Positions 1,925-33,608 of a stretch of DNA of 34,921 nt are shown here, piece by piece. Under the pieces are notes generated by a model. The model had not been told where the DNA came from, did not search any database, and saw only the letters and a list, made by a program, of their open reading frames with translations. Every line of letters starts with the position of its first letter. Positions within the stretch are counted from its first letter, which is position 1. The position numbers and the translations under genes were made by a program. Where the stretch lies: positions 60,402 to 95,322 of the forward strand of contig JAHDBZ010000001.1 in assembly GCA_020630245.1 (NCBI GenBank), in the 5' to 3' direction. Origin of the DNA: Candidatus Altimarinota bacterium (GTDB taxonomy: Bacteria; Patescibacteriota; Gracilibacteria; UBA4473).

Positions 1925-3411
1925 GCTTTCCCTCGATACCCAAACAGCCGTCGGACAATCTTTCTCACTTTCGGATTAAATAGTTTCGGAGCGAGATATT
2001 GACCCGCTAGCCATTTGCTGGCTTCGCCATACGTTGGGTAGATATAGGTTGAGCGGGCGATTTTAGAAATATCAAGCCCTTGGGCGATGGCCAGTTGCCA
2101 TTCGCGGATCATTTCACCGGCCCGTGGTGCGACAATTTGGACGCCAAGGACTTTATTTTTTTTGCCGATTAGGACTTTGATGAAACCTTCACTGCCCGAT
2201 TCTGTTAAAGCACGATCGTTACCACTGAGATTAAATTTCTGCACGTGGTATTTAAGCTTGGCTTTATCCGCGCTAGCTTCGTCATGACCGATATGGGCAA
2301 TCTCTGGGTCGGTGTAGATCGTCCAGCCGATCGAATCGTAACTGGCTTTGCTTGGAACTTTGAGGAATTCATTGGTAAAAACAATGCCGGCTTCGTAGTT
2401 GGCTGCGTGCGTAAAAGGTGTGTGCCCATTGATATCACCGATCGCCGTAATGTGCGGAACATTGGTGCGACAGTTTGGTTTGGTTGCTATACCACGTGGT
2501 CCGTATTTGACGCCGGCAGCTTCGAGATTTAGCTCCGTGTTTGGAATTCGGCCGGCTGCGAGCAAGATCTCATCGGTCGTAAATTCAATCGTTTTATTTT
2601 TTACTTTGAGGGTGAGGCATTTTTTGGTCTGACGCCCTATCTTTACAGTTTTTACTTCTAGTGGTTCGACATCCGTATAGATTTGTACGCCTTCAGACTT
2701 TAGTTTTTTTGTCATTACATCACGTGTGTCGGCGTCAAAGTGACCCAGGTAGGTTTTGTGTCGTTCTAAGATCGTTACTTGCGTGCCGAGACGCTGCATG
2801 GCTTGCGCCAATTCGGTTGCGATGACGCCCCCGCCAATGATAGTGAGTGATTTTGGTTGTACTTTTGAACTAAAAATTTGTTCATTAGTGATAAATCCTG
2901 CTTCTTTCAAACCTTTAATTTCAGGAATTCGCGGTCGAGAGCCAGTAGCAATACAGATTTTTTTACCCGTAATGGTCGTCGTTTTTTGAGTTTTATATTT
3001 TCTTTGTTGCAGGCGTGAGAGTTTGGGGTTGAGCTCGATTTTGATCGTGTGAGGATCTTTAAATTCAGCTCGGCCGAATATGACATCCGCGCCATAACTA
3101 CGAAAACGATCCGGGTCGTCATGTTTTTGGATCTTGCTCTGGATCTTGGCAATGCGACCCGTAACGTCTGACCAGGTAATCTTTGGCTCAGCTGCTTTGA
3201 TTCCATATTTATCCGCGTGTCGTATGTGATGAGCGACTTTTCCAGATTTGATCAAAGCTTTACTGGGAACACAGCCGTAGTGGAGACAGTCACCGCCGAG
3301 CTTGTCTTTATCAATCAGGCAAACTTTGACACCAAGTTGAGCTGCGGCAGAGCAGAGAGATAGACCGGCTGAGCCGCCACCGATGATGATGAGATCGTAG
3401 GTATATTGCAT
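1921..3411 (-). CDS. Class I pyridine nucleotide-disulfide oxidoreductase (dihydrolipoamide dehydrogenase / mercuric-reductase-like)
   Basis: 496 aa with an FAD Rossmann motif (IIIGGGSAGL), a redox-active CxxxxC (GGDCLHYGCVPSK) and a second dinucleotide fold (IIGGGVIATE). There is no C-terminal Cys pair or metal-binding domain, so it is not a bona fide MerA. Its stop overlaps the convergent TSUP stop by 4 nt. Confidence 0.8.
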   Translation of the reverse strand: MQYTYDLIIIGGGSAGLSLCSAAAQLGVKVCLIDKDKLGGDCLHYGCVPSKALIKSGKVAHHIRHADKYGIKAAEPKITWSDVTGRIAKIQSKIQKHDDPDRFRSYGADVIFGRAEFKDPHTIKIELNPKLSRLQQRKYKTQKTTTITGKKICIATGSRPRIPEIKGLKEAGFITNEQIFSSKVQPKSLTIIGGGVIATELAQAMQRLGTQVTILERHKTYLGHFDADTRDVMTKKLKSEGVQIYTDVEPLEVKTVKIGRQTKKCLTLKVKNKTIEFTTDEILLAAGRIPNTELNLEAAGVKYGPRGIATKPNCRTNVPHITAIGDINGHTPFTHAANYEAGIVFTNEFLKVPSKASYDSIGWTIYTDPEIAHIGHDEASADKAKLKYHVQKFNLSGNDRALTESGSEGFIKVLIGKKNKVLGVQIVAPRAGEMIREWQLAIAQGLDISKIARSTYIYPTYGEASKWLAGQYLAPKLFNPKVRKIVRRLFGYRGKA

Positions 3412-3435
3412 AGTTTGCTAGTTTGCTAATTTGCT
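3412..3435. repeat. Tandem octamer AGTTTGCT x3 (third copy AATTTGCT) at a gene junction
   Basis: The sequence AGTTTGCT AGTTTGCT AATTTGCT AG read directly. It covers the last codons and stop of the TVP38 gene and the 6-nt spacer before the oxidoreductase ATG. Each unit junction forms CTAG. Confidence 0.9.
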
Positions 3436-4089
3436 AGATTGGAAATGTTTTACGATTCGTGGCACGCAGAGTACTAAGCCAATCATGATTGCTGGAATGA
3501 TAAGGGCTTTAGGTCCCTGTAGAAGTGATTCTCCGAGATACACGAAAGCTGGTACAAATACGATATTGGTCAAAAGTGTTCCTAGAAAAAAATCTCTTCC
3601 CCTCAATGTGGGGATCGTACCGGCGGCGTAGCTGAGTGCAATATACGGTAAAAACAGTGCTCGTAGTACGATGATGCTGAGGACACCATTTTTATCAGAT
3701 TTTTCTTCGATGGTTTTAATGAGTTTGCCGATACCTTTTTTATTTTTAAGAGTTTCGATTCGGTCACCGCTTAATTTTCGACCGACGATGAACGCTACCT
3801 GTGCTGCGACGGTAGCCGCAAAGATAACATAAATAGAGCCCCACAGTTTACCGAACAATAAACCGCCTAAGATCGTGAAAACAGTCGAAGACACGAAGGC
3901 CATCACGACCACAAAATAAATAACCATAAACACCAGTGGCCCAAAAATTCCGAAGGCTTCAATCTGAGCTTTCAGATTGTCTGGGTTTAGATAATTTTGT
4001 ATTTGTGTACCGATGTCAGTCTGTGTCCACAGCAAAACTCCGATCGCAATGATGAGCAGTAGCCAGCCGTACTTCTTCAGCCATTTCAT
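3418..4089 (-). CDS. TVP38/TMEM64 family (SNARE-associated, DedA superfamily) membrane protein
   Basis: 223 aa with multiple TM helices and the core LGGLLFGKLWGSIYV...AQVAFIVGRKLSG, typical of the family. It lies 6 nt upstream of the oxidoreductase gene on the same strand. Confidence 0.7.
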   Translation of the reverse strand: MKWLKKYGWLLLIIAIGVLLWTQTDIGTQIQNYLNPDNLKAQIEAFGIFGPLVFMVIYFVVVMAFVSSTVFTILGGLLFGKLWGSIYVIFAATVAAQVAFIVGRKLSGDRIETLKNKKGIGKLIKTIEEKSDKNGVLSIIVLRALFLPYIALSYAAGTIPTLRGRDFFLGTLLTNIVFVPAFVYLGESLLQGPKALIIPAIMIGLVLCVPRIVKHFQSSKLAN

Positions 4090-6143: not shown

Positions 6144-8252
6144 ATGAACGTTGTAAAAAAGGAACTCCCGTTGGGAGAAAACGTATTCAGCTTTGAAGCT
6201 GGAAAATTTGCCCATCAAGCTGATGGTGCCGTTATGGTCTCGAATGGAGATTGTAAAATTTTGGTTACCGCCCAAATGGGAGGTGCCCGAGACGGGATGG
6301 ATTTCTTTCCTCTCGTGGTTGAATTCGAGCCTCGTTATTACTCAGCGGGTCGACTCAAACATTCAAAAGTCAATAAACGAGAAGGACGAAAAAGTGATCC
6401 AGATGTCCTTACTTGCCGAGTGACGGATCGTCCGTTGCGACCTATGTTCCCAAAAGGAATGCGTAATGAAGTCCAAATCATTGCCACTCAATTTCAAACC
6501 GATGGTGACCATGCTTCAGCGCCACTCTGTATTACCGGCGCTAGTCTCGCTATCCAAATGGCGGGAATGCCGTTTGAGCGATCGGTTTCAGCCGTGCAGG
6601 TTGGAATGGACGCCCAAGGAAACTTTATCACGAATCCATCCGGCACGCAGATTGCCGAATCAGGGCTAGATTTTGTGGTTGCTGGGACGGAGGACTCGAT
6701 CATGATGGTCGAAGCCGGGGCCAACCTAATTTCAAACGAAAAAGCCGTCGAGGTTCTCGAGTACGCGCATGCAGAGATCAAAAAGCTTTGTAAGTTACAG
6801 GATGAATTTTTGGCTGGAATGACCATCGAGGTCAAAGAATACGAGGTCGCGTCAGAATCTGATACCTATGCCCGCGCAGCGGAACTCGTCGATCAGCACA
6901 TTACCGAAGACGAATTTACTACCATTGCGGGGACGACTAAAAAAGAAGTTAAGAAGAAAATGCACGTTCTTGAAGAAAAACTCTTTGCAGCTTGTGCAGC
7001 GGAACTCGAAACTGAAGAAGTTTCAAAAGGAGACTTAGTCGGAGCCTTTGAAAAACGTTTTGCGAAAAATATGCGAGCGCGGGTCTTCACCACTGGAAAA
7101 CGAGTCGATGGTCGTGGTATTGACGATGTTCGAGATCTCTATGTAGAGACAGGGCTTTTCGATCGAGTCCATGGTTCAGGTCTTTTCCAGCGTGGTGAAA
7201 CGCAAGCGCTCACGATGCTTACCCTTGGAGGACCAGATGATGAAAAATACGTAGACACGACGGATGGTGGTGAGCGACGTGCTCGCTACATCCATCATTA
7301 TAACTTCCCGCCTTACTCAGTGGGGGAGACACGAATGTTGCGCGGACCGGGTCGTCGAGAGATTGGACACGGAGCTTTAGCAGAGCGAGCTCTGAGCTAT
7401 GTCATGCCAAAAGAAGAAGATGGTTGGCAGTACACAGTTCGTTGTGTGTCAGAGATCCTGAGCTGTAATGGTTCGAGTTCAATGGCTTCAGTTTGTGGAT
7501 CGACACTGGCTCTGATGGACGCCGGAGTACCGATCAAAACACCAATTGCGGGGATCGCTATGGGACTGCTAATGCAGGACGACGGGGATTTCCGAATTCT
7601 TACTGATATTCAAGGTCTCGAAGATTTCGATGGAGATATGGATTTCAAAGTAACGGGAGACGAAGAAGGTATCACAGCTCTACAGCTAGATATCAAACTC
7701 AAAGGGCTCGATCTATCACTGCTGAAAGATGCCTTGGAACGAGCGAAAGTCGCTCGAACACATATCCTAGGCGCTATGAAAGCTGAAATCGCGGTGCCAA
7801 ACCCAGAGATGAATGCACACGCACCACTGATCGAAACGATGAAGATCGACCCGGATCAGATCCGAGATATTATTGGTAAAGGCGGCGCTGTAATCCAAGG
7901 AATGTGTGCCGATTACGATGTAAAAATTAGCGTCGAAGATGACGGAACGGTTATCATCGCCGGTCTTAAGGAAGGTATCAATGGTGCGCGTAATCAAATC
8001 GAAATGATTACCTACACGCCCGAAGTCGGAGATGAGTTCCAGGATTGTGAAGTCAAAACGATCGTTGATTTCGGAGCTTTTGTTCAGTACGCACCAGGCA
8101 AGGATGGGCTGGTTCACATCTCTCAGATTGCAGAGGAACGTGTCGAAAAAGTTGAGGACTACCTCAAAGTTGGTCAAAAGGTGAATGTAAAACTTACCGA
8201 AATTGATCGACAAGGACGGGTTAAGCTGTCGATGAAAGGAATGAATAACTAG
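6144..8252 (+). CDS. pnp: Polyribonucleotide nucleotidyltransferase (PNPase)
   Basis: 702 aa with two RNase PH domains, then KH (IGKGGAVIQ) and S1 ([19 protein letters not shown]) domains. Conserved rpsO-pnp synteny. Confidence 0.97.
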
Positions 8253-8279
8253 TTAACAGATAACGGTTAACAGTGAACA
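8252..8279 (+). repeat. Heptamer array GTTAACA GATAACG GTTAACA GTGAACA just after the pnp stop
   Basis: Read directly. The TAA triplets at 8254, 8261 and 8268 fall in three different reading frames. Confidence 0.85.
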
Positions 8280-8280
8280 G

Positions 8281-8308
8281 AAAGGGGTCGATGATTATCG
8301 GCCCTTTT
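8281..8308. terminator. Bidirectional intrinsic terminator between convergent pnp and the DtxR-family gene
   Basis: In AAAGGGGTCGATGATTATCGGCCCTTTT, the 8-bp stem 8285-8292/8297-8304 (one G-U) has a GATT loop, with an A-tract upstream and a T-tract downstream. Confidence 0.7.
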
Positions 8309-8349
8309 GTTGTTTATAAGAGATCTAAGTGTAAAGATGTTTTTTTTGT

Positions 8350-8790: not shown

Positions 8791-8797
8791 GGAGCCA

Positions 8798-8830
8798 GTA
8801 TGAAGTATGAAGTCAGAAGTAAGAAGTAAT
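8798..8830. repeat. Heptamer array GTATGAA GTATGAA GTCAGAA GTAAGAA GTAAT
   Basis: Read directly in the divergent region. On the minus strand it forms the (N)TACTTC-repeat 5' UTR of the DtxR-family gene. Confidence 0.85.
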
Positions 8831-8906: not shown

Positions 8907-9701
8907 ATGAACGCAGCGTTCCTGATTACATTCCGCGAAGGTCTTGAAGCCGCTCTTATTGTAGGGATTCTATTTGCCGCCATGCGTGCGTTAGGTGCGC
9001 AAAAGCAGAACTTTGTGGTTTGGGCTGGAGTTGTGATGGGTTTGCTGCTGAGCTTTTTATTTGCCTGGGCGTTTGCGACTTTTACCAGTGGGTTTGAGGG
9101 AACGAGTGAGAAACTTTACGAAGGCATCTTGATGTTAGTGGCCTGTGGGATTATTACCCATCTCATCTTTTGGATGCGAAAAGAAGGTAAAAATATTGCC
9201 AGACGTCTCAAAGAACAGGTGAAGACTCACGTCGACAAAGGTTCTCTTTGGATGATCGGAGCCCTGGCGACGATCGCGGTAGCACGAGAGGGGATTGAGA
9301 CTGTGATCTTTTTTCAGGCACTGTTTGTCCAATCAGGCGAACAAGTTTCGATAATGAGTGGATTGCTTGGCGTGGCTTCGGCGGTTTTGTTGGCTTGTGT
9401 GATCTTCTTCTCAACCCGCAAAGTACCAGTCGGTAAGCTCTTCGAATGGCTGTCATATTTCTTGATCTTGATTGCCGCTGGGTTGCTGGCGCACGGTATC
9501 GTTGAACTGCAAGCCGCTGGCTGGCTGCCAACCATCATCAAGCCACTCTATGATCTCTCAGCGATTCTTTCCGAAAAAGAAGGCCTGGGAGCCTTCCTCA
9601 AAGCAGGCTTTGGTTATGACGCCAATCCGTCGCTGATAGCGGTGGTTGGTTATGTGCTGTATCTGGGAATTGTAGGGCGAATGTATCTGAAAAAGAATTA
9701 A
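8907..9701 (+). CDS. FTR1/EfeU family high-affinity iron permease
   Basis: Contains two REGxE motifs (FREGLEAAL and AREGIETVI) in TM helices. The track start at TTG 8847 would include the operator and promoter, so ATG 8907 (MNAAFLITFREGLE) is preferred. Confidence 0.8.
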   Translation: MNAAFLITFREGLEAALIVGILFAAMRALGAQKQNFVVWAGVVMGLLLSFLFAWAFATFTSGFEGTSEKLYEGILMLVACGIITHLIFWMRKEGKNIARRLKEQVKTHVDKGSLWMIGALATIAVAREGIETVIFFQALFVQSGEQVSIMSGLLGVASAVLLACVIFFSTRKVPVGKLFEWLSYFLILIAAGLLAHGIVELQAAGWLPTIIKPLYDLSAILSEKEGLGAFLKAGFGYDANPSLIAVVGYVLYLGIVGRMYLKKN

Positions 9702-9727
9702 GAGCTTAGAATTAAGAACTTAGATTT
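9693..9727 (+). repeat. Heptamer array AAGAATT AAGAGCT TAGAATT AAGAACT TAGATTT spanning the FTR1 stop
   Basis: Read directly. The true stop TAA at 9699 and the TAGs at 9707 and 9721 occupy three different frames. Confidence 0.8.
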
Positions 9728-9772: not shown

Positions 9773-11179
9773 TTATCTAACGCCTAAATCTTTCTTGAGC
9801 GCATGAATATGCCGAGCGGTAGCACTGTCAGTGCGGGCCAAGTCCTTAACTTTGCGGACTCCGTGCATGATCGTGGTGTGGTTTTTACCACCGAAGGCTT
9901 CGCCGATGCCTTCGAAACTCATTTTGAGGACATCTTTGCACAGTAGCCAGCTGATCTGACGCGGAAAGACGATCTCTTGTTTGCGAGAGGTACCGATGAG
10001 GTCGGTTGCTGGGATCTGAAAGTAATCAGAAATCAGCGTAATGATATCATCTGGGTTGCGAGCCAGGCTGCGGTGTTCACGACCGGTAATGAGGTCTTCG
10101 TTAGGCTGCAGCTGTCGGAATATTTTTCCGACACTCTGGATCGTAGGAGAGACTTGACTGAGCTCGAGCTCAGCGTGAATCATGTTGAGTACGTTTTCGA
10201 CTTCGCGTAGATTCTTTCGAACATTAGTGGCGATGAATTGTTGTACGTCTTCGGGAAGAATAAGGCCCAAAGCTTGAGCCTTGGCTCGGATGATAGCCAT
10301 CTTGGTTTCGTAGCTCGGCATGGTGACGTCTACCACTAGACCCCAACCGAAACGAGAACTAAGACGGTCAGCCATTTTTTCCAGCTGAGCCGGTGGACGG
10401 TCAGCGGAGAAGATCATTTGTTTGTTGAGATCTCTTAGATCGTTAAACGTATTAAAGACTTCGACCTGGGTTTTTTCTTTGCCGGCAAAAAATTGTACGT
10501 CGTCGATTAGTAGTACATCAACCCGGCGGTATTTTTTTCGAAGGGCTTCTGTCTTGCCCTCACGAATGGCTTTGATCGCTTCATTCGTAAATCGTTCAGC
10601 GGTGGTGTAGATGACAACCGCCTCAGGGTTTTGTTGACGGATTGCATTGGCCGTTCCTTGGAGGAGGTGTGTTTTCCCAAGTCCCACGCCGCCATAAAGA
10701 TAGAGAGGGTTGTAGGCTTTAGCTTCTTGACCGGCAGTTTGAGCGACCGCCAGACAAGCGGCGTGTGCCAGTCGATTTTTTTCTCCAACGATGAAGTTGT
10801 CGAGTGTGAACTTGTTTTGCACCAGTCGAGATTCAAGTCCCGAAGCGTGTTTTTCGGTTGGTTGTTTTGGAAGTTTTCGAGGCGCTTTTGGTTTTGCAAA
10901 AGCCGGAGCGATAACGGCTGGTTTGTCAGCCAGCGTTAGATCTACGTTGAAATAGATACGGTCAATCTCTGGTAGAGTTTTTTGTACGTTGTTGAGTAGA
11001 ATGGTCTGATATTTGTTTTCCAACCAGTTTTTATTCATCTCAGTTGGACAGCTAATGAGGACCGCTGATCCAGAGATTTCTTTGAGATGTACTTTTTTAA
11101 ACCAGGTATGAAATTCCATGCGTGAAATCTTCTGAGAAAGATTTTCTAGCACTTGGTTCCAGACTTGGGTTTTGTCCAT
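9773..11179 (-). CDS. dnaA: Chromosomal replication initiator protein DnaA
   Basis: AAA+ Walker A (GGVGLGKTHLL), Walker B (LLIDDVQF) and the C-terminal DNA-binding domain (NHTTIMHGVRKV). ATG at 11179 (MDKTQVWNQV) is preferred over the track's TTG at 11185. Confidence 0.95.
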   Translation of the reverse strand: MDKTQVWNQVLENLSQKISRMEFHTWFKKVHLKEISGSAVLISCPTEMNKNWLENKYQTILLNNVQKTLPEIDRIYFNVDLTLADKPAVIAPAFAKPKAPRKLPKQPTEKHASGLESRLVQNKFTLDNFIVGEKNRLAHAACLAVAQTAGQEAKAYNPLYLYGGVGLGKTHLLQGTANAIRQQNPEAVVIYTTAERFTNEAIKAIREGKTEALRKKYRRVDVLLIDDVQFFAGKEKTQVEVFNTFNDLRDLNKQMIFSADRPPAQLEKMADRLSSRFGWGLVVDVTMPSYETKMAIIRAKAQALGLILPEDVQQFIATNVRKNLREVENVLNMIHAELELSQVSPTIQSVGKIFRQLQPNEDLITGREHRSLARNPDDIITLISDYFQIPATDLIGTSRKQEIVFPRQISWLLCKDVLKMSFEGIGEAFGGKNHTTIMHGVRKVKDLARTDSATARHIHALKKDLGVR

Positions 11180-11229
11180 GATCAATAAATATTTTGAGGG
11201 GGTTTTTTGTTTTTTGTCACATTGAGAAA

Positions 11230-12762: not shown

Positions 12763-14145
12763 ATGAAACTACAAAACTCTTTGGCTTTGGGATTTGGATT
12801 GATGCTTGCCGTGTCAGCGCATTCTTATGCAGCTTCGACGGTTGCCAATCCTATTAATGAAGATCTATTCTTCTCTAATGGTGTACAGATCGAAGATGTC
12901 ACCGAAACGGCGCAGGGGGTGGCTTCGGTCACACTGCAGGGTTCGGGTAGTCTGACGGTTGGAAGTCAGGCCAGTGGAGGATTTCCGCGAGTGGCCGTTT
13001 CAGCTGGTACAACTATTACTAGTAACCGCTATTGGCCCGCAGAAACAGTGCCAAAAACTAGCTGGGACGGACAGTTTACAGCGCCTGGTTCAGGTCGACT
13101 GCCATCTAGTGACGAAATTACTTTCCAATACGCTGCAAATCTCGGCAATAACTATCAAGCGGTTGGAGCCTTTGTATGGGGGTTGAGTAACGAAGTTTTC
13201 TCTTTTAGTGTCCCGGCTCGATTTATGTTGCCGGTTGATGAAGCTGATGGGCAACGACTTTGGGTGGCGCCAGCTTCTGGGTCTGGTTGGGCGGTCACCG
13301 ACGCTAATAACTATTGTGTCGTCGAATCAGGTCTTTGTTATCTCGAGTTAACATCGTTTGGAGGATTAGCTTTAGTTAAACAAACCTACGCTGATTGTCC
13401 GAAATCAACGGTTAATAATGGTACCGTCGGTTCGGCACCAAATTGTATAGTGACCTGTAATAGTGGATACTATATTGATAACGAAGGAAATGAATGTCTT
13501 TCAGATAACTTCGACAGCTCGGCGCCAGTTGGTGGTGGAGATGTTTCAGATGGAGATGAAAGCGTAGAGTCACAGTGGACAGAAGAAGATCTAAAAGCTT
13601 TTGATGATTTCTCTGAACCAGAGCAAGAGACTATTTATGATTTTGCCTCAGAATATGGTTATGATCCATTGGAGCTGATTCGGGCAACACCAGGGGGCGT
13701 GAGAGAGCGTGGGTCAGCAGCTTCGATTCGTTACTACCTGGAAGAATACACAGATATGACTGATGAAGAGCTGGCTAAAGTACGACACATCAATACTGGA
13801 TACATGGCTCGAAATCCGCGTTCTGCTGAAGAACAAATTGCGGCTTACAGTCGAGATAAGGACCCGGCTGAGAAACGAGCTGAAGATGATAGTTTTGCCA
13901 GCTACTTACTCGCTATGCGAAATCGCTTCGCAAGCCAGCAAGGTGGCGAAGCTGTGGTGGCTGGTCAGACTGATGCAGTTGCTCAAGGTGCTCTCGCTGA
14001 CGCAGAAGGTGCCGCCTCGGGAGCCGCTTCAGATCAGTTCCATTCAGCAGGGGGGTTGCTCCCAAGTACGGGACCAGGATTATTCATTGCTATCGCTATT
14101 ATTGGCTTCATGCTCATGCTGTTCGGCGGCATACGTCGGAATTAA
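12763..14145 (+). CDS. LPXTG-anchored cell-surface protein (sortase substrate)
   Basis: Signal peptide MKLQNSLALGFGLMLAVSAHSYA. The C-terminus is LPSTG followed by a hydrophobic stretch (PGLFIAIAIIGFMLMLFGG) and a basic tail (IRRN). An acidic, low-complexity linker lies in the middle. GTG 12745 is an alternative start. Confidence 0.8.
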   Translation: MKLQNSLALGFGLMLAVSAHSYAASTVANPINEDLFFSNGVQIEDVTETAQGVASVTLQGSGSLTVGSQASGGFPRVAVSAGTTITSNRYWPAETVPKTSWDGQFTAPGSGRLPSSDEITFQYAANLGNNYQAVGAFVWGLSNEVFSFSVPARFMLPVDEADGQRLWVAPASGSGWAVTDANNYCVVESGLCYLELTSFGGLALVKQTYADCPKSTVNNGTVGSAPNCIVTCNSGYYIDNEGNECLSDNFDSSAPVGGGDVSDGDESVESQWTEEDLKAFDDFSEPEQETIYDFASEYGYDPLELIRATPGGVRERGSAASIRYYLEEYTDMTDEELAKVRHINTGYMARNPRSAEEQIAAYSRDKDPAEKRAEDDSFASYLLAMRNRFASQQGGEAVVAGQTDAVAQGALADAEGAASGAASDQFHSAGGLLPSTGPGLFIAIAIIGFMLMLFGGIRRN

Positions 14146-14188
14146 CAACGCTACACTAAGTTTCTGGATATTTTGTGGGTCCAAGAAG

Positions 14189-14210
14189 CCCTGCCTCGGC
14201 AGGGTTTTTT
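14189..14210 (+). terminator. Intrinsic terminator after the LPXTG gene
   Basis: CCCTGC (14189-14194), loop CTCG, GCAGGG (14199-14204), then TTTTTT. Confidence 0.75.
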
Positions 14211-14238
14211 GGTAACTTGAAAATGCCGGATAATTGCC

Positions 14239-14266
14239 TTGACGATGACCCCTAAAAACCTATATT
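14239..14266 (+). promoter_or_regulatory. Promoter of rpmE (TTGACG-16-TATATT)
   Basis: TTGACG at 14239-14244 and TATATT at 14261-14266. Confidence 0.6.
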
Positions 14267-14315
14267 CCATCGGCTTTGCTGGTACTTGGCCACAAAGATG
14301 TAATCCATACTAAAC

Positions 14316-14576
14316 ATGCAAACTGGTATCCATCCTACTCTTCATCCTGTGATCTTTCGGGATGCAAACGCAAAAAAAGATTTTGTTATTTACTCGACGA
14401 TGACTTCTGAAGAAACAGAAGAAATCGGCGGTGTAAAGCACTACGTAGTGCGGGTTGATGTCTCATCAGCCTCACATCCTTTCTATACAGGAAAACAAAA
14501 CCTCGTCGATACTTCAGGGCGAGTTGATAAATTCCGTGCTAAGATGGAACGTGCGAAAGCCGCGCAAGCTAAATAA
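14316..14576 (+). CDS. rpmE: 50S ribosomal protein L31, type B (no zinc-binding cysteines)
   Basis: MQTGIHP...[23 protein letters not shown] is canonical L31. The CxxC motifs of type A are absent. Confidence 0.9.
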
Positions 14577-14584
14577 TTATTACC

Positions 14585-15748
14585 ATGGCCGAAGAAAAGA
14601 AAAAAACCACTCGAAGCACTGCTAGTACCGCTAAGAAAGTAACCAAAAAAGTTACGAAAAAAGCCACTACTAAGGCAAAGTCTACGACTAAAAAAGTAGC
14701 TTCAACCGCGAAATCAACGACGAAAAAAGCCACTACAAAAGCCAAGTCAACGGCTAAGAAGGCAACTTCAACGGCGAAAAAGCCAGTAAAGGTCGCTAAA
14801 TCAGTGATTCGACCTGGAAAGGTTGTCACGATGACTGACTGGAAAAAGACTGCTACAGGGGCTTTTGGAGCCTGGAAAAGTGTTGGTTGGCGGATTTTTG
14901 TACTGTTCTTGTCGTTCTTTGCGGCTATGATGCCTATTTTAGCCCTGATTGGAGGAGGTTACACGCTCTTGGCCGGAGGTTTTCAAGGGCTCGAAAATCA
15001 ATTTGTGAATCTGCAGTTTGGTAATCCAGACCTTGCGTTCCTTTGGGGGGCGGGGCTTGGGTTTATTTTGTTACTTACCGCGATTTTTGTACTTTCATTT
15101 CTCGTCAATATCGCCACCTGGTTAACCCTTAAAAATTACGCACACGGGAAACCCAACAATCCACTCATAGTTTTCTTTCGTGATAGTTGGGCTTATCTAG
15201 GTCGCTATACGTGGCTCTCGGTGAAAATTTTCCTTTACCTTTTAGTCCCAATCCTAGGGCTCGTGCTTTTCGGTGCTTTGATGAGTACTCTCTTTGGAGC
15301 CGCGGCTAATTTTATAGGAGATCCTACGATGTCTATGGCATTGATGGTAGCGCTCGGTATTTTATCAGTGATTGTTCTGTTTTTCTTACTGCGGATGCTC
15401 TTCCGTCGATGGACCGAAGCTATTATGATGCCAATTGTACTGATGGAATCAGACGATTCCGTAACGAACGTCTGGTCAAAATCACTCAGCCTGGCGCAAA
15501 AAAATTGGGGAGCGATCCTTGGAGCCATCCTACTCTTTGCCTTTCCTTTTTGGATCGTACAGGTGATCTCCGATCCAGAGCTGATGCAGTTGTACGCACC
15601 AGAAGCTTTTCTAAATAATGATTGGCTCTTTGGTGGCGCTATTGCCTTCAACGTGCTTTTCTCTCTCCTGATTATGACGCCGATTACGACGGCTTTCCTG
15701 TACGGAATTACTCGACACCTTGGTAACGTCAAAAACATTAAACTCTAA
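14585..15748 (+). CDS. Polytopic membrane protein with a histone-H1-like Lys/Thr/Ala-rich N-terminal tail
   Basis: Residues ~5-70 are degenerate KKxT/AK repeats (KKVTKKVTKKATTKAKSTTKKVASTAKSTTKKATTKAKSTAKKATSTAKKPVKVAK). Roughly 6-7 hydrophobic helices follow. No family was recognised with confidence. Confidence 0.6.
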   Translation: MAEEKKKTTRSTASTAKKVTKKVTKKATTKAKSTTKKVASTAKSTTKKATTKAKSTAKKATSTAKKPVKVAKSVIRPGKVVTMTDWKKTATGAFGAWKSVGWRIFVLFLSFFAAMMPILALIGGGYTLLAGGFQGLENQFVNLQFGNPDLAFLWGAGLGFILLLTAIFVLSFLVNIATWLTLKNYAHGKPNNPLIVFFRDSWAYLGRYTWLSVKIFLYLLVPILGLVLFGALMSTLFGAAANFIGDPTMSMALMVALGILSVIVLFFLLRMLFRRWTEAIMMPIVLMESDDSVTNVWSKSLSLAQKNWGAILGAILLFAFPFWIVQVISDPELMQLYAPEAFLNNDWLFGGAIAFNVLFSLLIMTPITTAFLYGITRHLGNVKNIKL

Positions 15749-15760
15749 ACCTTTTATCTC

Positions 15761-16006
15761 ATGTCTAAGAAACCAGTACCCAAGAAACAACAGGCTAAAT
15801 CGCAAAGTCGTTCACGACACAGCAAATATGTAGCCGAACAACGAAAACGTCTTTCACAAGGTGTGCAACTTACGGAATGTACTCACTGTGGAGCCAAGCG
15901 ACGTGTACACTATGCTTGTGAAGCCTGTGGTTACTACCGTGGTCGACAAGTCCTTAATGTAGACAGCTCGACTGGTAGCGGTAAAGTTACCGAGATTTCA
16001 GCCTAA
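15761..16006 (+). CDS. rpmF: 50S ribosomal protein L32 (zinc-ribbon type, extended C-terminus)
   Basis: N-terminus KKPVPKKQQAKSQSRSRHSKY and a CTHCG...CEACG zinc ribbon. Confidence 0.9.
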   Translation: MSKKPVPKKQQAKSQSRSRHSKYVAEQRKRLSQGVQLTECTHCGAKRRVHYACEACGYYRGRQVLNVDSSTGSGKVTEISA

Positions 16007-16021
16007 ACGAAGCGAGAAGTA

Positions 16022-16083
16022 AGTGAGACTTGTCGAGTCTACGAGACATCAGTCGAACTTATCCTGAGCCTGCGAAGGATCTT
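16022..16083 (+). repeat. Intergenic repeat family, copy A (short 62-nt variant)
   Basis: Shares the boxes AGTGAGACT, AGTCGAACTTATCCTGAGC and CGAAGGATCTT with copies at 33527-33608 (+) and 27813-27894 (-). Lies between rpmF and nusB in sense orientation. Confidence 0.85.
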
Positions 16084-16145
16084 ATGTCATAAGTAAGCAG
16101 TGAGAAGTGCTTTAAACCGAAGGCTTCATATTTCATACTTCCACT

Positions 16146-16580
16146 ATGAGTGAAAAACAACAACAGCGTCGAGAAGCCCGAGGTTTGGCAATCCAAACGC
16201 TGTTTGCCTATCTGGAGCGTGATGAGAAAATTCCTCTCGTTGAAACCTTTGAAATGGTTTCAGAAGGCTCAGAAGACCTATTTGTAACCGGTTTTGCTTG
16301 GCAGATTGTTCAGACAGCAGTCGAGCATCTCAAAAAAATTAGAGTTATTATTCGCGCCTTTGCGCCAGAGTTCGCCTTTGAAAAAATTGCTCCGATCAAT
16401 CGTTCCCTATTGATATTGGGAATTACAGAAATGAAATTCATGGATACGCCCCCAGTGGTAGTCATTAATGAATACATTGAATTGGCCAAAGACTATGGAG
16501 AGGACAAGTCTCCGAGTTTTGTGAACGGAGTTTTGGATAATTATCGTAAGAGTTTGGGATTAGAAAGAAGTAAAAAGTAA
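16146..16580 (+). CDS. nusB: Transcription antitermination factor NusB
   Basis: 144 aa with AREAAIQ-like RREARGLAIQTLF at the N-terminus and VVINEYIELAKDYGEDKSPSFVNGVLD at the C-terminus. Confidence 0.88.
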   Translation: MSEKQQQRREARGLAIQTLFAYLERDEKIPLVETFEMVSEGSEDLFVTGFAWQIVQTAVEHLKKIRVIIRAFAPEFAFEKIAPINRSLLILGITEMKFMDTPPVVVINEYIELAKDYGEDKSPSFVNGVLDNYRKSLGLERSKK

Positions 16581-16698
16581 GAAGGTAGAAGTAAGAAGTA
16601 ATGAGTTATTGCTGAGAAGAATCTTCTCATCTTCTCATCTTCAATCTACACTACTTTTCACTTCACATTTCCTACTGCATATTTCATACTTACCCCAC
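16566..16698 (+). repeat. Inverted heptamer arrays forming a long imperfect hairpin upstream of rnc
   Basis: The left arm is six AGAAGTA-like heptamers (16566-16607). The centre is GAGAAG-aat-CTTCTC (16614-16628). The right arm is (N)NNACTT/CTTC heptamers up to the rnc ATG. I hand-paired about 32 bp in 7 segments between 16567 and 16664. Confidence 0.75.
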
Positions 16699-17406
16699 AT
16701 GAGTGAGATAGAAGATTTATTTTCCCGTATTGACGTTGATTTTGTGGTTTATACTCAAGCAGCAGACCTTTTTAAAGAAGCCTTTACGCATCGTTCAGTG
16801 ACCTATGATGGTGGACAGGAGAATGATAATGAACGTCTGGAATTTCTCGGAGATGCAGTGCTAGAGCTTGTGACAACCGAATGGCTCTTTCGTCATTTTC
16901 CAGATCTGAGTGAAGGAAAGCTCACCAGCTATCGTTCCGCACTCGTAAAACGCGAAAATTTGGCCCAGGTGGCCCGTAAGATTGATTTAGGGTATTGGCT
17001 CAAGCTGTCACGTGGCGAAGACCGATCAGGCGGTCGTAATAAAGACTATCTCCTGGCGAATCTCGTCGAAGCGTTTATCGGCGCTTTATACCTCGCGGCT
17101 GGAAATGAAGTTACCAGAGAATTTATTCACCGCTTTATCATGGTAGAGCTGGATCAGATCCTTCAACAAGGACATCACATCGATGCTAAATCTGAACTAC
17201 AAGAGATCACGCAGGGAGAACTGGGAATCACGCCTCACTATCAAGTCCTCAATGAGAAAGGAAAGGACCACGAGAAAGAATTTGAGATCGGCGTCTACCT
17301 AGGAGATCGACTCATTGGTCAGGGAGGAGGCCGTTCAAAAAAAGAAGCGCAGATGTCGGCGGCACTAAAAGCGATAGAAAACCAAGATGACTGGTTCAAT
17401 GCTTGA
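16699..17406 (+). CDS. rnc: Ribonuclease III
   Basis: RNase III signature ERLEFLGDAVLELV and a C-terminal dsRBD (GKDHEKEFEIGVYLGDRLIGQGGGRSKKEAQMSAA). ATG 16699 (MSEIEDLF) is preferred because the track start 16609 reads through the repeat array. Confidence 0.92.
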   Translation: MSEIEDLFSRIDVDFVVYTQAADLFKEAFTHRSVTYDGGQENDNERLEFLGDAVLELVTTEWLFRHFPDLSEGKLTSYRSALVKRENLAQVARKIDLGYWLKLSRGEDRSGGRNKDYLLANLVEAFIGALYLAAGNEVTREFIHRFIMVELDQILQQGHHIDAKSELQEITQGELGITPHYQVLNEKGKDHEKEFEIGVYLGDRLIGQGGGRSKKEAQMSAALKAIENQDDWFNA

Positions 17407-18487
17407 AAATACTCTAACGGCATTTCGTCACTTTGCCACGGCCGTAGAGGCCGGTGATTCGGGTATCTTCTTTAGCGACTTTTCACCGCGGGAGCAGGCA
17501 GAGTTTTGTTACGGGATTGGGGATTACGAGTTGGTTGATTTTGAGGCGGAGCTATTTCCCAAGTTTTCGATCTTTGATTGGAAAGGGGAGACAGATCATC
17601 ACTATTACTTTCAAGACTGGCGTAGTGACAAGTCAGAAGTGAGAAGTGAGAAGTGTGAATGGCTCGAATTACCTGTTGATTCTGAATTGTTTTCTTTTTC
17701 GGATCGCCCAGGAAAAGCCTGGCAGGAAAAAGTTGCCCAAGTTATCAAATATCAAGAGCGGGGCGACGCTTGGGTGGTAAATCTAGCGCACGATTATGTG
17801 TCAGGACCATTTACAGATATGGCGTCATTTAAACGAGAATTACTCAGGCTGTTTTATCGGTTTCTGCAGCTTCCAAACTCACATTCCGCCGGCATTGTTT
17901 TTACCAGTGAACAAATATTTTGTTCTTTTTCTCCAGAGTTATTTGTCCGCCAGAGTGATGGCCAGATTTTGACTTCGCCGATCAAAGGAACTGGTACCGT
18001 GGAGTATCTTAATACCTCACAAAAAGAACGTTCAGAGCTCGATATGATTACCGATCTTTTGCGTAATGACCTGGGTCAGATCTGTGATACGGTGAGTGTG
18101 CTCAATGAACGTTTTCTGGTGGCGGAAAAAAACTTTTACAGTGCTCGTTCACTGATTCGGGGCCAGTTTGATGGCGCTTTGACGCCAGCAGATTATCAGC
18201 GTTTGTTGCCAGCGGGCTCGATCTCTGGAGCGCCGAAGGCGCGGGTGGTGGAGATTATCGAGTCGTTGGAAGATTTTAGTCGTGAATTTTATACTGGAAC
18301 GATGGGCGTGCAGCTGTCACCGACTGATTCGGTGTGGAATATTTTGATTCGGACGATTTTCGTTGATGCCACCTCTAAGCATTGGAGCTTTCCGGTCGGA
18401 GTCGGCATCACTGCTGAATCTGATCCAGCGGCAGAGTGGCAAGAAACTTGGCAAAAGGCCCAACTCCTGACAGACTTAGCACGATGA
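17387..18487 (+). CDS. Chorismate-binding enzyme, short PabB/TrpE-like (aminodeoxychorismate synthase component I-like)
   Basis: Motifs GDAWVVNLAH, SPELFVR, PIKGT, DLLRNDLG, GSISGAPKARVVEIIESLE and FYTGTMG match the chorismate-utilising enzyme fold. At 366 aa the N-terminal domain is shortened. It overlaps the rnc end by 20 nt and the lspA start by 4 nt (ATGA). Confidence 0.7.
   Translation: MTGSMLENTLTAFRHFATAVEAGDSGIFFSDFSPREQAEFCYGIGDYELVDFEAELFPKFSIFDWKGETDHHYYFQDWRSDKSEVRSEKCEWLELPVDSELFSFSDRPGKAWQEKVAQVIKYQERGDAWVVNLAHDYVSGPFTDMASFKRELLRLFYRFLQLPNSHSAGIVFTSEQIFCSFSPELFVRQSDGQILTSPIKGTGTVEYLNTSQKERSELDMITDLLRNDLGQICDTVSVLNERFLVAEKNFYSARSLIRGQFDGALTPADYQRLLPAGSISGAPKARVVEIIESLEDFSREFYTGTMGVQLSPTDSVWNILIRTIFVDATSKHWSFPVGVGITAESDPAAEWQETWQKAQLLTDLAR
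17632..17659 (+). repeat. Heptamer array GTCAGAA GTGAGAA GTGAGAA GTGTGAA inside the PabB-like CDS
   Basis: Read directly. It belongs to the same GTNNGAA family as 8798-8830 and is translated as KSEVRSEKCE in a linker region. Confidence 0.85.
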
Positions 18488-18900: not shown

Positions 18901-18942
18901 GGCAGTGAATAGTGAGCAGAGAGCAGTGAGCAGAAATCAGAA
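18901..18942 (+). repeat. Heptamer array GGCAGTG AATAGTG AGCAGAG AGCAGTG AGCAGAA ATCAGAA after the lspA stop
   Basis: Read directly. It starts at the base after the TAG at 18898-18900. Confidence 0.8.
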
Positions 18943-18984
18943 TTTAAATATAGATCTTTTCCCCCTTGAAAGGGAGGCTTTAAT

Positions 18985-19412: not shown

Positions 19413-19452
19413 TCAACTGATCAGCTGACCAACCGATCAACAGAACAACAGA
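19413..19452 (+). repeat. Octamer array TCAACTGA TCAGCTGA CCAACCGA TCAACAGA ACAACAGA
   Basis: Read directly between the rpsT promoter and the ssrA promoter. Confidence 0.8.
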
Positions 19453-19502
19453 AAGGGAAAGCCGGACATCTGTGAATCAACAGGATTTAGATCTGTCACA
19501 GA

Positions 19503-32425: not shown

Positions 32426-33502
32426 ATGCAATGGTTTAAAAATAAATGGTTAAAACTCCGTCATCGCCTCGGCCTAGGAGCTATTGAGTGGGATATGACA
32501 CTTGATAAAGTGTTTGATCGACTCGCGATCATGAAGCAGGAACCAGAACAAAAACAAACCATTTCGATTCGAGTAGTAGAAGACGCCAAGATCGGTTGGC
32601 TCTACTGGATGGAGCTGACACTATCGGTGCTGATTGCGACCTTCGGTTTGCTCCAAAACTCGGTAGCGGTGATCATCGGAGCGATGCTGATCGCCCCGTT
32701 TTTGCGACCGATTCAGGGAGTGGCCTTTGCGATCGCCAATGGCCGACGGAAGCTCCTCTGGAACACGCTACAGACACTGACGATTAGTACGTTGTACTCG
32801 ATTTTTTTGGCTTGGTTAGTGCTCGGACTGGTGCCCTACGCGGAGGTGACACCAGAGATACTGAGTCGAACGGCTCCCAACACTTTTGACCTTTTCATCG
32901 CGATCTTCTCGGCGATGGTAGCGAGTCTCGCTCATGCCTATCAACGATTATATGAAAGTGTGGCTGGGGTGGCGATGGCGACCGCAATTGTCCCGCCGCT
33001 GGCGGTGATCGGGATCATGATTTTCTTTGGAGACTTTACGTTGGCGTGGGGTAGTTTTGTGCTCTACCTAACTAACCTCGTGGCGATTCTCTTGATCGGA
33101 GTAGTGATGTTTATCTTCTATGGCTTTAACCCGCACAAACAAGAATCAGAGTCCTCTCTCAAACGAATTGGGATTTTGTTTTTAGTTACGTTTGTGTTGT
33201 GGTTTGTGCTGAGTTCTGGTCTGCAAAAGATCGAAGAAAATCGTACCTTGCAAAAGAGTACGTATCAAACGCTGCTGCAGACTTTGGACAAAGATCTTCC
33301 AGGAGCTAAGGTCAAAGACTTCGAAATCATTGAGACCAAGGAAGGTCACACCATCAATGGACAACTGTTTGTCGATGATCAAACGCGGATCACGCATGGG
33401 AAGCTTAAGGACATCAAATCTGGACTCTCTGAAAAACTCGGTCGAGACTTTGAGCTCGAGCTCGATATCGTGCGGACGGTGAGTATCGAAGGAGAAGAGT
33501 AA
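32426..33502 (+). CDS. DUF389 family (TIGR00341-like) integral membrane protein
   Basis: 358 aa. LIATFGLLQNSVAVIIGAMLIAPFLRPI and repeated hydrophobic helices are typical of DUF389. Confidence 0.55.
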   Translation: MQWFKNKWLKLRHRLGLGAIEWDMTLDKVFDRLAIMKQEPEQKQTISIRVVEDAKIGWLYWMELTLSVLIATFGLLQNSVAVIIGAMLIAPFLRPIQGVAFAIANGRRKLLWNTLQTLTISTLYSIFLAWLVLGLVPYAEVTPEILSRTAPNTFDLFIAIFSAMVASLAHAYQRLYESVAGVAMATAIVPPLAVIGIMIFFGDFTLAWGSFVLYLTNLVAILLIGVVMFIFYGFNPHKQESESSLKRIGILFLVTFVLWFVLSSGLQKIEENRTLQKSTYQTLLQTLDKDLPGAKVKDFEIIETKEGHTINGQLFVDDQTRITHGKLKDIKSGLSEKLGRDFELELDIVRTVSIEGEE

Positions 33503-33526
33503 GTATGAAGAGAGAAGTGTGAAGTA

Positions 33527-33608
33527 AGTGAGACTCAGCGAGTTTGCGAGTTGTTAGTCGAACTTATCCTGAGCAAACGATCTTGAGTTTGTCGAAGCGA
33601 AGGATCTT
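33527..33608 (+). repeat. Intergenic repeat family, copy B (82 nt)
   Basis: AGTGAGACTCAGCGAGTTTGCGAGTTGTTAGTCGAACTTATCCTGAGCAAACGATCTTGAGTTTGTCGAAGCGAAGGATCTT. It is preceded by NNNGAAG heptamers at 33504-33524, downstream of the DUF389 stop. Confidence 0.85.

What the first reader, a model, noticed from the sequence alone, without database searches (positions are those of the whole stretch)
8252..8279. 7-8 nt tandem repeat arrays sit at many gene boundaries
Short tandem arrays with a period of 7 (sometimes 8) nt occur at 3412-3435 (AGTTTGCT x3), 8252-8279, 8798-8830, 9693-9727, 16009-16030, 16566-16698, 17632-17659, 18901-18942, 19413-19452 (8-mer) and 33504-33531. Unit sequences differ between sites (GTTAACA, GAAGTAA, NNCAGTG, TCAACNGA and others). 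The period and the position are what recur, with arrays starting at or within a few nt of a stop codon or running up to a start codon. Many units contain TAA, TAG or TGA. Because 7 and 8 are not multiples of 3, the arrays spread stops across frames: all three frames after pnp and FTR1, but only two after nusB and lspA. Possible explanations are a lineage-specific slippage or duplication process, multi-frame stop buffers in a very compact genome, or reiterated sites for an oligomeric RNA-binding protein. HutP-type antiterminators read triplets spaced 7 nt apart, which is a precedent for the last idea.
Basis: seen in the sequence. Interest (0 to 1): 0.6.

Follow-up and report, generated by a model that had tools for sequence, protein, structure and literature searches.

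The report
Heptamer repeat arrays at gene ends
Short runs of 7-base (sometimes 8-base) repeats really do sit against the stop and start codons of this small candidate-phyla-radiation bacterium. They belong to a known but unexplained class of bacterial heptamer repeats, and here they follow a strict orientation rule that also holds in many unrelated bacteria.

Summary
All ten listed tracts exist, and three independent assemblies of the source sample reproduce those I laid reads on. Only periods 7 and 8 (and 14) give arrays. Against dinucleotide shuffles of the spacers, period 7 gives 3 arrays where 0.03 are expected, and period 8 gives 3 where 0.02 are expected.

Three corrections:
- 17632-17659 lies in frame inside the pabB-like gene.
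- 16009-16030 and 33504-33531 are degenerate.
- The units are not mostly different. Seven tracts share GAAGTRA, and three more are its complement.

The window follows a grammar. Purine arrays lie on the sense strand flush with stop codons. Complementary arrays end 5-8 nt before start codons. Where both occur they fold into a hairpin, as in nusB-rnc (z = -3.8).

The same grammar holds in more than 120 unrelated metagenome contigs (30-72% GC). There, 40 of 72 downstream sense-oriented gene flanks are within -21..+6 nt of the stop, and partners lie downstream in 29 cases and upstream in 4.

I file the arrays as STRR/LSSR-type dispersed heptamer repeats, new for a CPR lineage. The function is unproven. 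The HutP idea is not supported. The stop-buffer idea is a by-product at best, because the AG core is conserved and the stop triplet is not.

The parts
3406..3441 (-). 8-mer array (AGCAAAYT, about 4 copies on the minus strand). It encodes the last codons and the TAG stop of the DedA/VTT gene and runs up to the ATG of the flavoprotein reductase gene.
   Evidence: The stop is at 3418-3420 and the next ATG at 3411-3409.
8250..8280 (+). Period-7 array (NNNTAAC / TAACAGT, about 5 copies) starting at the pnp stop codon. Its last unit forms the base of the terminator stem.
8273..8317 (.). Intrinsic terminator hairpin between the convergent genes pnp and mntR.
   Evidence: z = -6.2; strain SNPs preserve or strengthen pairing.
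8797..8830 (+). GAAGTRA array (about 4.7 copies) in the mntR/efeU divergent spacer. Read on the mntR sense strand it is the pyrimidine form (TYACTTC) and ends 6 nt before the mntR ATG.
9693..9727 (+). 14-nt (2 x 7) array overlapping the efeU/FTR1 stop codon. A hairpin follows.
16009..16029 (+). Degenerate GAAGTRA array (3 units), 2 nt after the rpmF stop. It merges into the 82-nt dispersed element.
   Evidence: Not detected by TRF.
16090..16110 (+). GAAGTRA-type array (3 units) in the rpmF-nusB spacer.
   Evidence: (family D3).
16124..16140 (+). Complement-type tract (CTTCATATTTCATACTT) ending 5 nt before the nusB ATG.
   Evidence: (family D9).
16567..16608 (+). GAAGTRA array (6 units) that encodes the last residues and the TAA stop of nusB. 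It is the 5' arm of the long hairpin.
16621..16691 (+). Complement-type arrays: ATCTTCTC x2.8, then degenerate CTTCACA / TTCATAC heptamers. They form the 3' arm of the hairpin and end 7 nt before the rnc ATG (16699).
   Evidence: MFE -32.9 kcal/mol, z = -3.78; independent gene calls start rnc at this ATG.
17629..17656 (+). GAAGTGA array (4 units) in frame inside the PabB-like gene. It encodes ...KSEVRSEKC... in a variable loop.
18902..18943 (+). GCAGTGA-type array (6 units) starting 1 nt after the lspA stop. Terminator hairpins follow.
19413..19453 (+). 8-mer array (TCAACNGA x5) between the divergent rpsT gene and the tmRNA gene.
33500..33534 (+). Degenerate GAAGTRA array (5 units) whose first unit contains the TAA stop of the TIGR00341-family gene. 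It merges into a copy of the 82-nt element.

Best explanation
The tracts are dispersed tandem heptamer repeats of the STRR/LSSR class. In this Peregrinibacteria/Gracilibacteria-like CPR genome, one family dominates: (GAAGTRA)n and its complement (TYACTTC)n.

DNA level (inferred). Arrays arise and expand in 7-nt steps by slipped-strand events. They survive only where a 7-nt step does not break a reading frame. That means the few unconstrained bases between a stop codon and the next functional element, or occasionally an in-frame 21-nt multiple in a variable protein loop.

Orientation (shown, here and in unrelated contigs). The purine form lies on the sense strand flush with or overlapping the stop codon. 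This is the only orientation that supplies stops in other frames, so it costs at most a few extra residues. The pyrimidine form lies 5-8 nt in front of start codons.

RNA level (the fold is shown; its function is inferred). Where both forms occupy one spacer they pair into a long, imperfect hairpin with the purine arm first. In this way they punctuate operon transcripts as terminator stems, RNase III-type processing sites or translation-coupling structures. The clearest case is the roughly 120-nt hairpin between nusB and rnc.
For: - Period and enrichment.
- Real DNA.
- One family at many sites: seven GAAGTRA tracts and three complementary tracts. 33-nt unitigs of the repeat stand at 50-85x against about 7x for the genome.
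- Window grammar: six sense-strand arrays start within 3 nt of, or overlap, the stops of pnp, efeU, rpmF, nusB, lspA and the TIGR00341 gene. TTCATACT-type tracts end 5-8 nt before the ATGs of nusB, rnc and mntR.
- Hairpin: nusB-rnc spacer z = -3.78.
- Relatives: the lag-7 signal reaches z >= 3 in 7 of 24 related loci tested and is absent from non-CPR controls. A period-7 tract follows the pnp stop in about 9 of 25 lineages, with at least 7 different units. 9 of 35 arrays have a complementary partner within 150 nt.
- Independent sample: (GAAGTRA)3 occurs in more than 120 metagenome contigs of 30-72% GC. 40 of 72 flanks where the array lies downstream of a gene in sense orientation are within -21..+6 nt of that gene's stop (median 4.5 nt). 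The median is 68 nt, with none within 6 nt, in the antisense orientation. The stop falls in the first or zeroth unit in 26 cases, against 3 and 2 in the second and third units. A complementary partner lies downstream in 29 of 96 arrays and upstream in 4 of 96.
- Class precedent: heptamers are the commonest long simple repeats in prokaryotes, and STRR, TAACTGA and GGGAATC repeats have been described (PMC4679880; PMC4692102; bioRxiv 10.1101/2022.06.06.494920).
Against: - No transcript ends, cleavage sites or binding data exist for this organism. RNA runs hold only 5-8% of the sampled words.
- Most arrays (26 of 35 in the CPR set, about two thirds in the metagenome set) have no detectable partner, so the hairpin role cannot be general.
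- The rpmF-nusB and 33503-33640 spacers do not fold better than shuffles.
- Orthologous junctions in relatives are short and array-free, or carry other units. This fits evolutionarily labile, possibly neutral DNA.
- Local slippage alone does not explain the same unit at ten sites here and across phyla.
- Two co-occurring strains show no copy-number change, so high instability is not demonstrated.
Confidence: 0.5

Rival explanations
1. The arrays are neutral simple-sequence debris. They arise by replication slippage in the only DNA free to vary, are pinned against coding sequence by purifying selection, and have no function at the DNA or RNA level.
For: - Arrays fill exactly the stop-to-terminator or stop-to-start gaps that are short and non-repetitive in array-free relatives.
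- Units differ between lineages, and the trait is patchy, being absent from the three loci with the closest pnp.
- Only one array lies in 31 kb of coding DNA, and it spans about 21-28 nt (3-4 units) without breaking the frame.
- Heptamer excess is a general property of prokaryotic long simple repeats (PMC4679880).
Against: - One unit family occupies ten sites in 35 kb and stands at 7-12 times genome depth.
- The identical unit occurs in genomes of 30-72% GC, where it is a compositional outlier.
- Purine-first polarity of pairs is 29 to 4.
- The stop codon is in register with the first unit in 26 of 31 cases.
- Arrays recur behind pnp in about 9 lineages.
Confidence: 0.25
2. The arrays are arms or footprints of a mobile, self-folding insertion: a heptamer-armed hairpin cassette that sometimes carries a small four-helix-bundle (23S-IVS-protein / Avd-like, PF05635/TIGR02436) gene. 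It lands at gene ends and is looped out of, or cut from, the host transcript.
For: - The same unit appears across phyla and at many loci per genome.
- Arms bracket inserts: the 82-nt element at 16022-16083 and 33527-33608 sits between purine and pyrimidine tracts.
- Loops of 6-214 nt occur in metagenome pairs.
- Earlier notes of this scan report such a gene bracketed by inverted heptamer tracts in another piece of this genome and in other phyla. I did not verify this.
Against: - Pfam reported 35 families for the 150 small ORFs next to GAAGTRA arrays. The 25 listed do not include PF05635, and the neighbours are ordinary housekeeping genes.
- No such gene is in the window.
- No target-site duplications or transposase were seen.
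- Most arrays are solitary.
Confidence: 0.12
3. The arrays are multi-frame stop buffers. They are selected to terminate ribosomes that read through or frameshift at the gene end.
For: - All three frames are closed after pnp, efeU, rpmF, the TIGR00341 gene and dedA.
- Only the stop-bearing orientation faces gene ends.
- TGA is rare as a stop here, at 3 of 37.
Against: - The stop triplet is intact in only 15 of 31 units, while the AG core is kept in 29 of 31.
- Two frames, not three, are closed after nusB and lspA.
- The complementary arrays before start codons have no stops.
- Any period not divisible by 3 would serve equally well.
- The benefit of stopping a ribosome that errs in the last codon is tiny (inference).
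Confidence: 0.06
4. The arrays are reiterated binding sites for an oligomeric or cooperatively binding nucleic-acid-binding protein. Candidates are HutP-like proteins, cold-shock-domain proteins with a footprint of about 7 nt, or S1.
For: - A conserved core (A3, G4, T5) recurs every 7 nt with variable neighbours.
- One family dominates per genome, which suggests a shared trans factor.
- MacGregor 2015 proposes S1, Csp or CsrA for TAACTGA repeats.
- Canonical Shine-Dalgarno motifs are rare upstream of the starts here.
Against: - No candidate gene is linked to the arrays.
- There is no UAG-N4 register as HutP requires.
- The same unit in very distant phyla would need a universally conserved reader.
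- No binding data exist.
Confidence: 0.07

Closest known systems
Heptamer-dominated long simple sequence repeats (LSSR) of prokaryotes (Mrazek et al. 2007, as summarised in MacGregor 2015, PMC4679880)
   Same: Tandem units of 5-11 nt with 7 nt the commonest, longer than chance, mostly non-coding, and phylogenetically scattered.
   Different: That survey did not cover CPR bacteria. As far as the summaries read here go, it did not report sense-strand, stop-flush placement or purine-arm-first pairing.
STRR (short tandemly repeated repetitive) heptamers of heterocystous cyanobacteria (Calothrix PCC 7601; cited in PMC4692102)
   Same: Several heptamer families per genome, each at many intergenic loci, with function unknown.
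   Different: The units differ: here GAAGTRA, while the STRR units recalled from memory are CCCCAGT, TTGGTCA and CAACAGT. The arrays here are short (3-6 units), the phylum is different, and the genome is far smaller.
TAACTGA direct repeats of marine Beggiatoaceae, some Cyanobacteria and Bacteroidetes (MacGregor 2015, PMC4679880)
   Same: Intergenic heptamer arrays of 2-6 copies pressed against gene boundaries. The unit contains stop triplets, Shine-Dalgarno sites are scarce, and the distribution crosses phyla.
   Different: TAACTGA arrays lie mostly just upstream of start codons in forward orientation. Here the dominant family lies just downstream of stop codons, and its complement lies upstream of starts. 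No TAACTGA tandem is present.
GGGAATC / GGGGAYT heptamer repeats of Xanthomonas and Nostoc (Rehm et al. 2015, PMC4692102)
   Same: About 180 heterogeneous heptamer arrays per genome, typically 4 units, with conserved core positions. Some occur as convergent inverted pairs that can form stem-loops.
   Different: Those units are G-tract repeats that fold into G-quadruplexes. GAAGTRA has no G-tracts.
REP/BIME and similar extragenic palindromes of enterobacteria (from general knowledge)
   Same: Dispersed hairpin-forming elements placed after stop codons within operons. They are thought to shape mRNA stability and termination.
   Different: REPs are single imperfect palindromes mobilised by RAYT transposases, not tandem heptamers. 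No RAYT gene was seen here.
HutP binding sites of Bacillus subtilis
   Same: A 7-nt spacing of a short RNA motif.
   Different: HutP needs two sets of three UAG triplets in a hut leader and a HutP hexamer. None of these is present here.

Membership tests
Prokaryotic heptamer-dominated LSSR (Mrazek 2007) | Head-to-tail repeats of a 5-11 nt unit, longer than expected by chance for the genome's composition | tested here: met
   Period 7: 3 observed against 0.03 expected. Period 8: 3 against 0.02. TRF scores 31-55.
Prokaryotic heptamer-dominated LSSR (Mrazek 2007) | Period 7 predominates over other unit lengths | tested here: met
   Only periods 7, 8 and 14 are found among periods 2-15. Lag 7 is the only non-trivial autocorrelation peak.
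Prokaryotic heptamer-dominated LSSR (Mrazek 2007) | Units that are not a multiple of three are largely excluded from coding sequence | tested here: met
   One array in 31 kb of CDS, in frame, against 6 or more in 3.5 kb of spacer.
Cyanobacterial STRR | Several heptamer families, each repeated at many loci of one genome | tested here: inconclusive
   One family occupies ten sites in the window, with unitig depth 7-12 times the genome.
Cyanobacterial STRR | The specific STRR1-3 unit sequences, in a cyanobacterial host | tested here: not met
   The units here are GAAGTRA, TAACAGT, AGCAAAYT and TCAACNGA. The host is a CPR bacterium.
TAACTGA direct repeats (MacGregor 2015) | The unit is TAACTGA in tandem | tested here: not met
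   No TAACTGA tandem appears in TRF or my scans.
TAACTGA direct repeats (MacGregor 2015) | Placed within a few nt upstream of start codons, in forward orientation | tested here: not met
   The dominant arrays follow stop codons. Only the complement form precedes starts.
HutP-type antiterminator sites | Two sets of three UAG triplets, each separated by 4 nt | tested here: not met
   The conserved core is A3-G4-T5 of GAAGTRA, with no UAG register.
HutP-type antiterminator sites | A hutP gene, and a position in a terminator/antiterminator leader | tested here: inconclusive
   No hutP-like gene was found among the window's 38 genes. The arrays follow stops. The rest of the genome could not be searched.
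Phase-variation (contingency) simple sequence repeats | Copy number differs between close strains and switches a gene on or off | tested here: not met
   Two co-occurring strains differ by SNPs beside the pnp array, but no contig shows an indel in any array. The arrays lie after stops, so copy number cannot shift a frame. Contigs can miss rare variants.
IVS-like cassette with a four-helix-bundle gene (PF05635/TIGR02436) | A small four-helix-bundle ORF enclosed by complementary repeat arms | tested here: not met
   None in the window. PF05635 is not among the 25 listed of 35 families reported for 150 small ORFs beside GAAGTRA arrays. A copy reported elsewhere in this genome could not be checked.

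The most novel reading that the evidence does not exclude
(GAAGURA)n directly behind stop codons and (UYACUUC)n directly before start codons would be the two halves of a pan-bacterial, orientation-locked 'cistron punctuation' element. Conserved machinery, namely the terminating ribosome and RNase III or the termination apparatus, would read it through the purine-arm-first hairpin the two halves form. That would explain why the same unit and the same grammar recur from 30% to 72% GC and in CPR bacteria.
Probability: 0.2. Interest if true: 0.8.

Novelty: new variant of a known kind. Interest (0 to 1): 0.5.

Why it matters
Bacterial heptamer repeats have been known since 1990 (STRR), and no function has been established for them. 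This window shows them in a minimal CPR genome, where almost every base is under constraint.

The metagenome comparison turns a vague 'intergenic' description into a testable rule with three parts. The purine form lies on the sense strand flush with the stop codon. The complement form lies just before the start codon. Hairpins always have the purine arm first.

If that rule reflects function, it points to a widespread, unannotated layer of operon punctuation. If it reflects only selection on which insertions are tolerated, it explains why these repeats look positioned without being functional.

There is also a practical consequence for annotation. Gene callers will extend or truncate C-termini (nusB, dedA) and may miss that an in-frame array sits inside a gene (the pabB-like gene).

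Tried and rejected
No genome-wide statistics, 16S 3'-end check or search for PF05635/hutP was possible.
- Close strains for copy-number comparison: exact-protein look-up of NusB found only the three runs of the source sample. The nearest genomes share at most 67% PNPase identity.
- RNA evidence for this organism: the only RNA runs hold 5-8% of the tmRNA words, meaning relatives.
- RNA evidence from another array-rich organism: RNA contigs of an unrelated freshwater organism (L096) contain the arrays, so arrays there are transcribed or present as contaminating DNA. The contigs break at the repeats, so they say nothing about RNA ends.
- Rfam: only tmRNA is found in the window.
- Genetic code 25 (UGA = Gly), as in related Gracilibacteria: rejected. 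Conserved genes are intact under table 11, and homologues end at the TGA stops.
- Shine-Dalgarno mimicry by GAAGUGA (6/7 match to GAGGUGA): considered. The chance of such a match over all rotations and windows is about 7%, and the conserved core is GAAG, not GGAG. I did not pursue it.
- Local seeding of the array from the gene's own last codon plus stop: the unit overlapping the natural stop matches the array unit at only 2-6 of 7 positions by my reading of the sequences. Seeding does not explain most cases.
- Assembly artefact: rejected.
- Literature search for the literal repeat strings found nothing relevant.
Full report
**What the window is.** PNPase (6144-8252) is at most 67% identical to proteins of Candidatus Altimarinota, Gracilibacteria and Peribacteria MAGs. 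Earlier notes on the same genome call it Peregrinibacteria. Table 11 gives intact conserved genes at 92% coding density. Stop usage is TAA 24, TAG 10 and TGA 3.

- A strict self-match scan over periods 2-15 returns only periods 7, 8 and 14.
- In spacers padded by 15 nt, period 7 gives 3 arrays where 300 dinucleotide shuffles give a mean of 0.03, and period 8 gives 3 against 0.02. Periods 4-6, 9, 10 and 12 give none. The 31 kb of coding DNA contain a single period-7 array.
- Intergenic autocorrelation peaks at lag 7 (z = 4.3) and lag 14 (z = 2.4). Coding DNA shows only the period-3 pattern.
- Logan contigs from three runs of the source sample (an algae metagenome, about 7x depth) cross the arrays in the two stretches laid, without indels. 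33-nt unitigs of the GAAGTGA repeat stand at 50-85x, which indicates many further copies.

**Corrections to the finding.**
1. 17632-17659 is inside the 366-aa PabB-like gene. Homologues in L020, L009 and L034 align from residue 1-8 to the end. The array encodes KSEVRSEKC in a variable loop.
2. The units are not mostly different. Seven tracts with 31 units share G24-A21-A29-G29-T23-R27-A23 (counts out of 31), that is GAAGTRA. The tracts 16124-16140 and 16621-16691, and 8797-8830 read on the mntR strand, are its complement.
3. About 9 of about 26 spacers of at least 20 nt carry arrays. That is many, not most.

**A grammar in the window.**
- Sense-strand, purine-rich arrays start at or overlap the stop codons of pnp, efeU, rpmF, nusB, lspA and the TIGR00341 gene. 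An A-rich 8-mer array does the same for dedA on the other strand.
- TTCATACT-type complement tracts end 5-8 nt before the ATGs of nusB, rnc and mntR, where no Shine-Dalgarno motif is visible.
- In the nusB-rnc spacer the two types pair into a hairpin of about 120 nt (MFE -32.9 kcal/mol; shuffles -20.3 ± 3.3; z = -3.78).
- After pnp, the last array unit forms the foot of the intrinsic terminator.
- The rpmF-nusB and 33503-33640 spacers do not fold better than shuffles.

**Relatives.**
- Among 24 related loci tested singly, the intergenic lag-7 signal reaches z >= 3 in L004, L005, L006, L008, L020, L021 and L034. It is absent from L001-L003, which have the closest PNPase. The CPR loci pooled give z = 5.7, and 32 non-CPR loci pooled give z = 1.6.
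- In the CPR loci plus the window, roughly two thirds of about 50 arrays are non-coding or overlap gene ends, although only about 9% of that DNA is non-coding.
- The sequence right after the pnp stop is a period-7 tract in the window and in L004, L005, L008, L009, L013, L018, L020 and L021. At least seven different units occur (TAAGTAT, TAGAACT, AATGAAG, ATCAATN, AATTACG, AATTGAA, TGAATAA) and a terminator usually follows.
- At other orthologous junctions the picture is one of turnover. The rpmF-nusB spacer is 37-50 nt and array-free in L009, L010 and L020, filled by AATTTTC x3.7 in L034, and 139 nt with arrays plus an 82-nt element here. The nusB-rnc hairpin is unique to the window.
- Nine of 35 arrays have a significantly complementary partner within 150 nt. 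L013 has a GAAGTAA/CTTCC hairpin like the one here.

- Of 137 arrays, 37 lie inside called ORFs and the rest lie in spacers.
- Of the 72 gene flanks where the array lies downstream of a gene in that gene's sense orientation, 40 are within -21..+6 nt of the stop (median 4.5 nt). In the antisense orientation the median is 68 nt and none is closer than 6 nt.
- The flush genes are mostly long, with normal codon-position GC patterns.
- The stop sits in the first or zeroth unit in 26 cases, against 3 and 2 in the second and third units. This is not what an ORF merely running into a stop-rich tract would give.
- A complementary partner lies within 200 nt downstream of the purine array in 29 of 96 cases and upstream in 4 of 96. 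Hairpins are therefore purine-arm-first whichever strand is read. Loops are mostly 6-76 nt.
- L135 shows the full grammar over three consecutive genes of a conjugation-type cluster.
- The listed Pfam matches among 150 small neighbouring ORFs are ordinary housekeeping families, and PF05635 is not among the 25 listed of 35 families.
- RNA-derived contigs of one such organism contain the arrays but break at them.

**What it most likely is.** The class is known. Heptamers dominate long simple repeats in prokaryotes, and slippage was proposed as their source (Mrazek 2007, summarised in PMC4679880). Named cases are the cyanobacterial STRR, TAACTGA repeats, GGGAATC/GGGGAYT repeats including convergent inverted pairs (PMC4692102) and Nostoc TTTTGAA/GACYAAT repeats near starts. 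None has a proven function.

The window adds a CPR example and a clear orientation rule. My best reading has three steps:
- Arrays are generated at the DNA level in 7-nt steps.
- Selection filters them, so that only the stop-bearing purine orientation is tolerated against a gene's 3' end and out-of-frame arrays are purged from genes.
- In the subset with both arms, they are used as hairpins that punctuate transcripts.

Only the sequence facts and the folds are shown. Generation, filtering and RNA function are inferred.

- Stop buffer: the TAA/TGA triplet is intact in only 15 of 31 units while the AG core is kept in 29 of 31, and the start-proximal complement arrays have no stops.
- HutP: there is no UAG-N4 register, no hutP in the window, and the position relative to genes is wrong.

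**What remains unexplained.**
- Why the unit is seven bases long.
- Why the same unit occurs at ten sites here and across phyla, which is hard to reconcile with purely local slippage.
- Why the pnp 3' end is so often occupied.
- Whether the four-helix-bundle cassette reported by earlier notes in another piece of this genome is the source of the arms.

Noticed in passing
16022-16083 (+), 33527-33608 (+), 27813-27894 (-): A dispersed element of about 82 nt occurs in three copies (83% between two of them). The invariant boxes are AGTGAGACT and GTCGAACTYATCCTGAGC. Each copy sits just after a stop codon in the sense orientation, and two copies continue directly from a GAAGTRA array. It does not fold better than shuffles and has no Rfam match.
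   Followed up: partly
8281, 8288, 8317, 8324: Two co-occurring strains differ at four positions in and beside the pnp/mntR terminator. T8288C and T8317C turn G-U pairs into G-C, and A8281G turns A-U into G-U. The stem is therefore kept or strengthened (-27.3 to -29.4 kcal/mol), while the adjacent array is unchanged.
   Followed up: yes
16560-16700: The long heptamer-armed hairpin lies directly upstream of the RNase III gene (rnc, 16699-17406). It resembles the RNase III-cleaved leader that autoregulates rnc in E. coli (general knowledge). The hairpin is absent at the same junction in L009, L010, L020 and L034.
   Followed up: partly
whole window (upstream 30 nt of 38 starts): GGAGG-like Shine-Dalgarno motifs are almost absent. 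The one clear case is AGGAGGAAGT, about 20 nt before 31557. TGA is used as a stop only 3 times in 37, always next to or overlapping a downstream gene.
   Followed up: partly
1-34921: GC skew is positive (0.07-0.18) in all but one 2-kb bin (14001-16000, about 0), whichever strand the genes are on. It does not change sign at dnaA (9773-11185, minus strand), so the replication origin is probably not next to dnaA here.
   Followed up: no
14654-14779: A 33-nt (11-codon) tandem repeat of about 3.5 copies encodes a Lys/Thr/Ala-rich N-terminal tail of the 387-aa protein between rpmE and rpmF.
   Followed up: no
L135:5990-7090: In an unrelated 37%-GC metagenome contig with a VirB4-like gene, three successive genes show the complete grammar. 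The GAAGTAA array supplies ...LSKK-stop of gene 1, a second array follows the stop of gene 2, and two (TTACTTC)4 arrays end 5-6 nt before ATG codons.
   Followed up: partly
L096:8241-8302 and L096:8542-8573: A perfect (GAAGTGA)3 / (TCACTTC)3 hairpin lies between convergent genes, one of them infA-like, in a freshwater organism. Metatranscriptome contigs carry these repeat words at 80-240x summed depth, so many array-bearing loci are transcribed or abundant there.
   Followed up: partly
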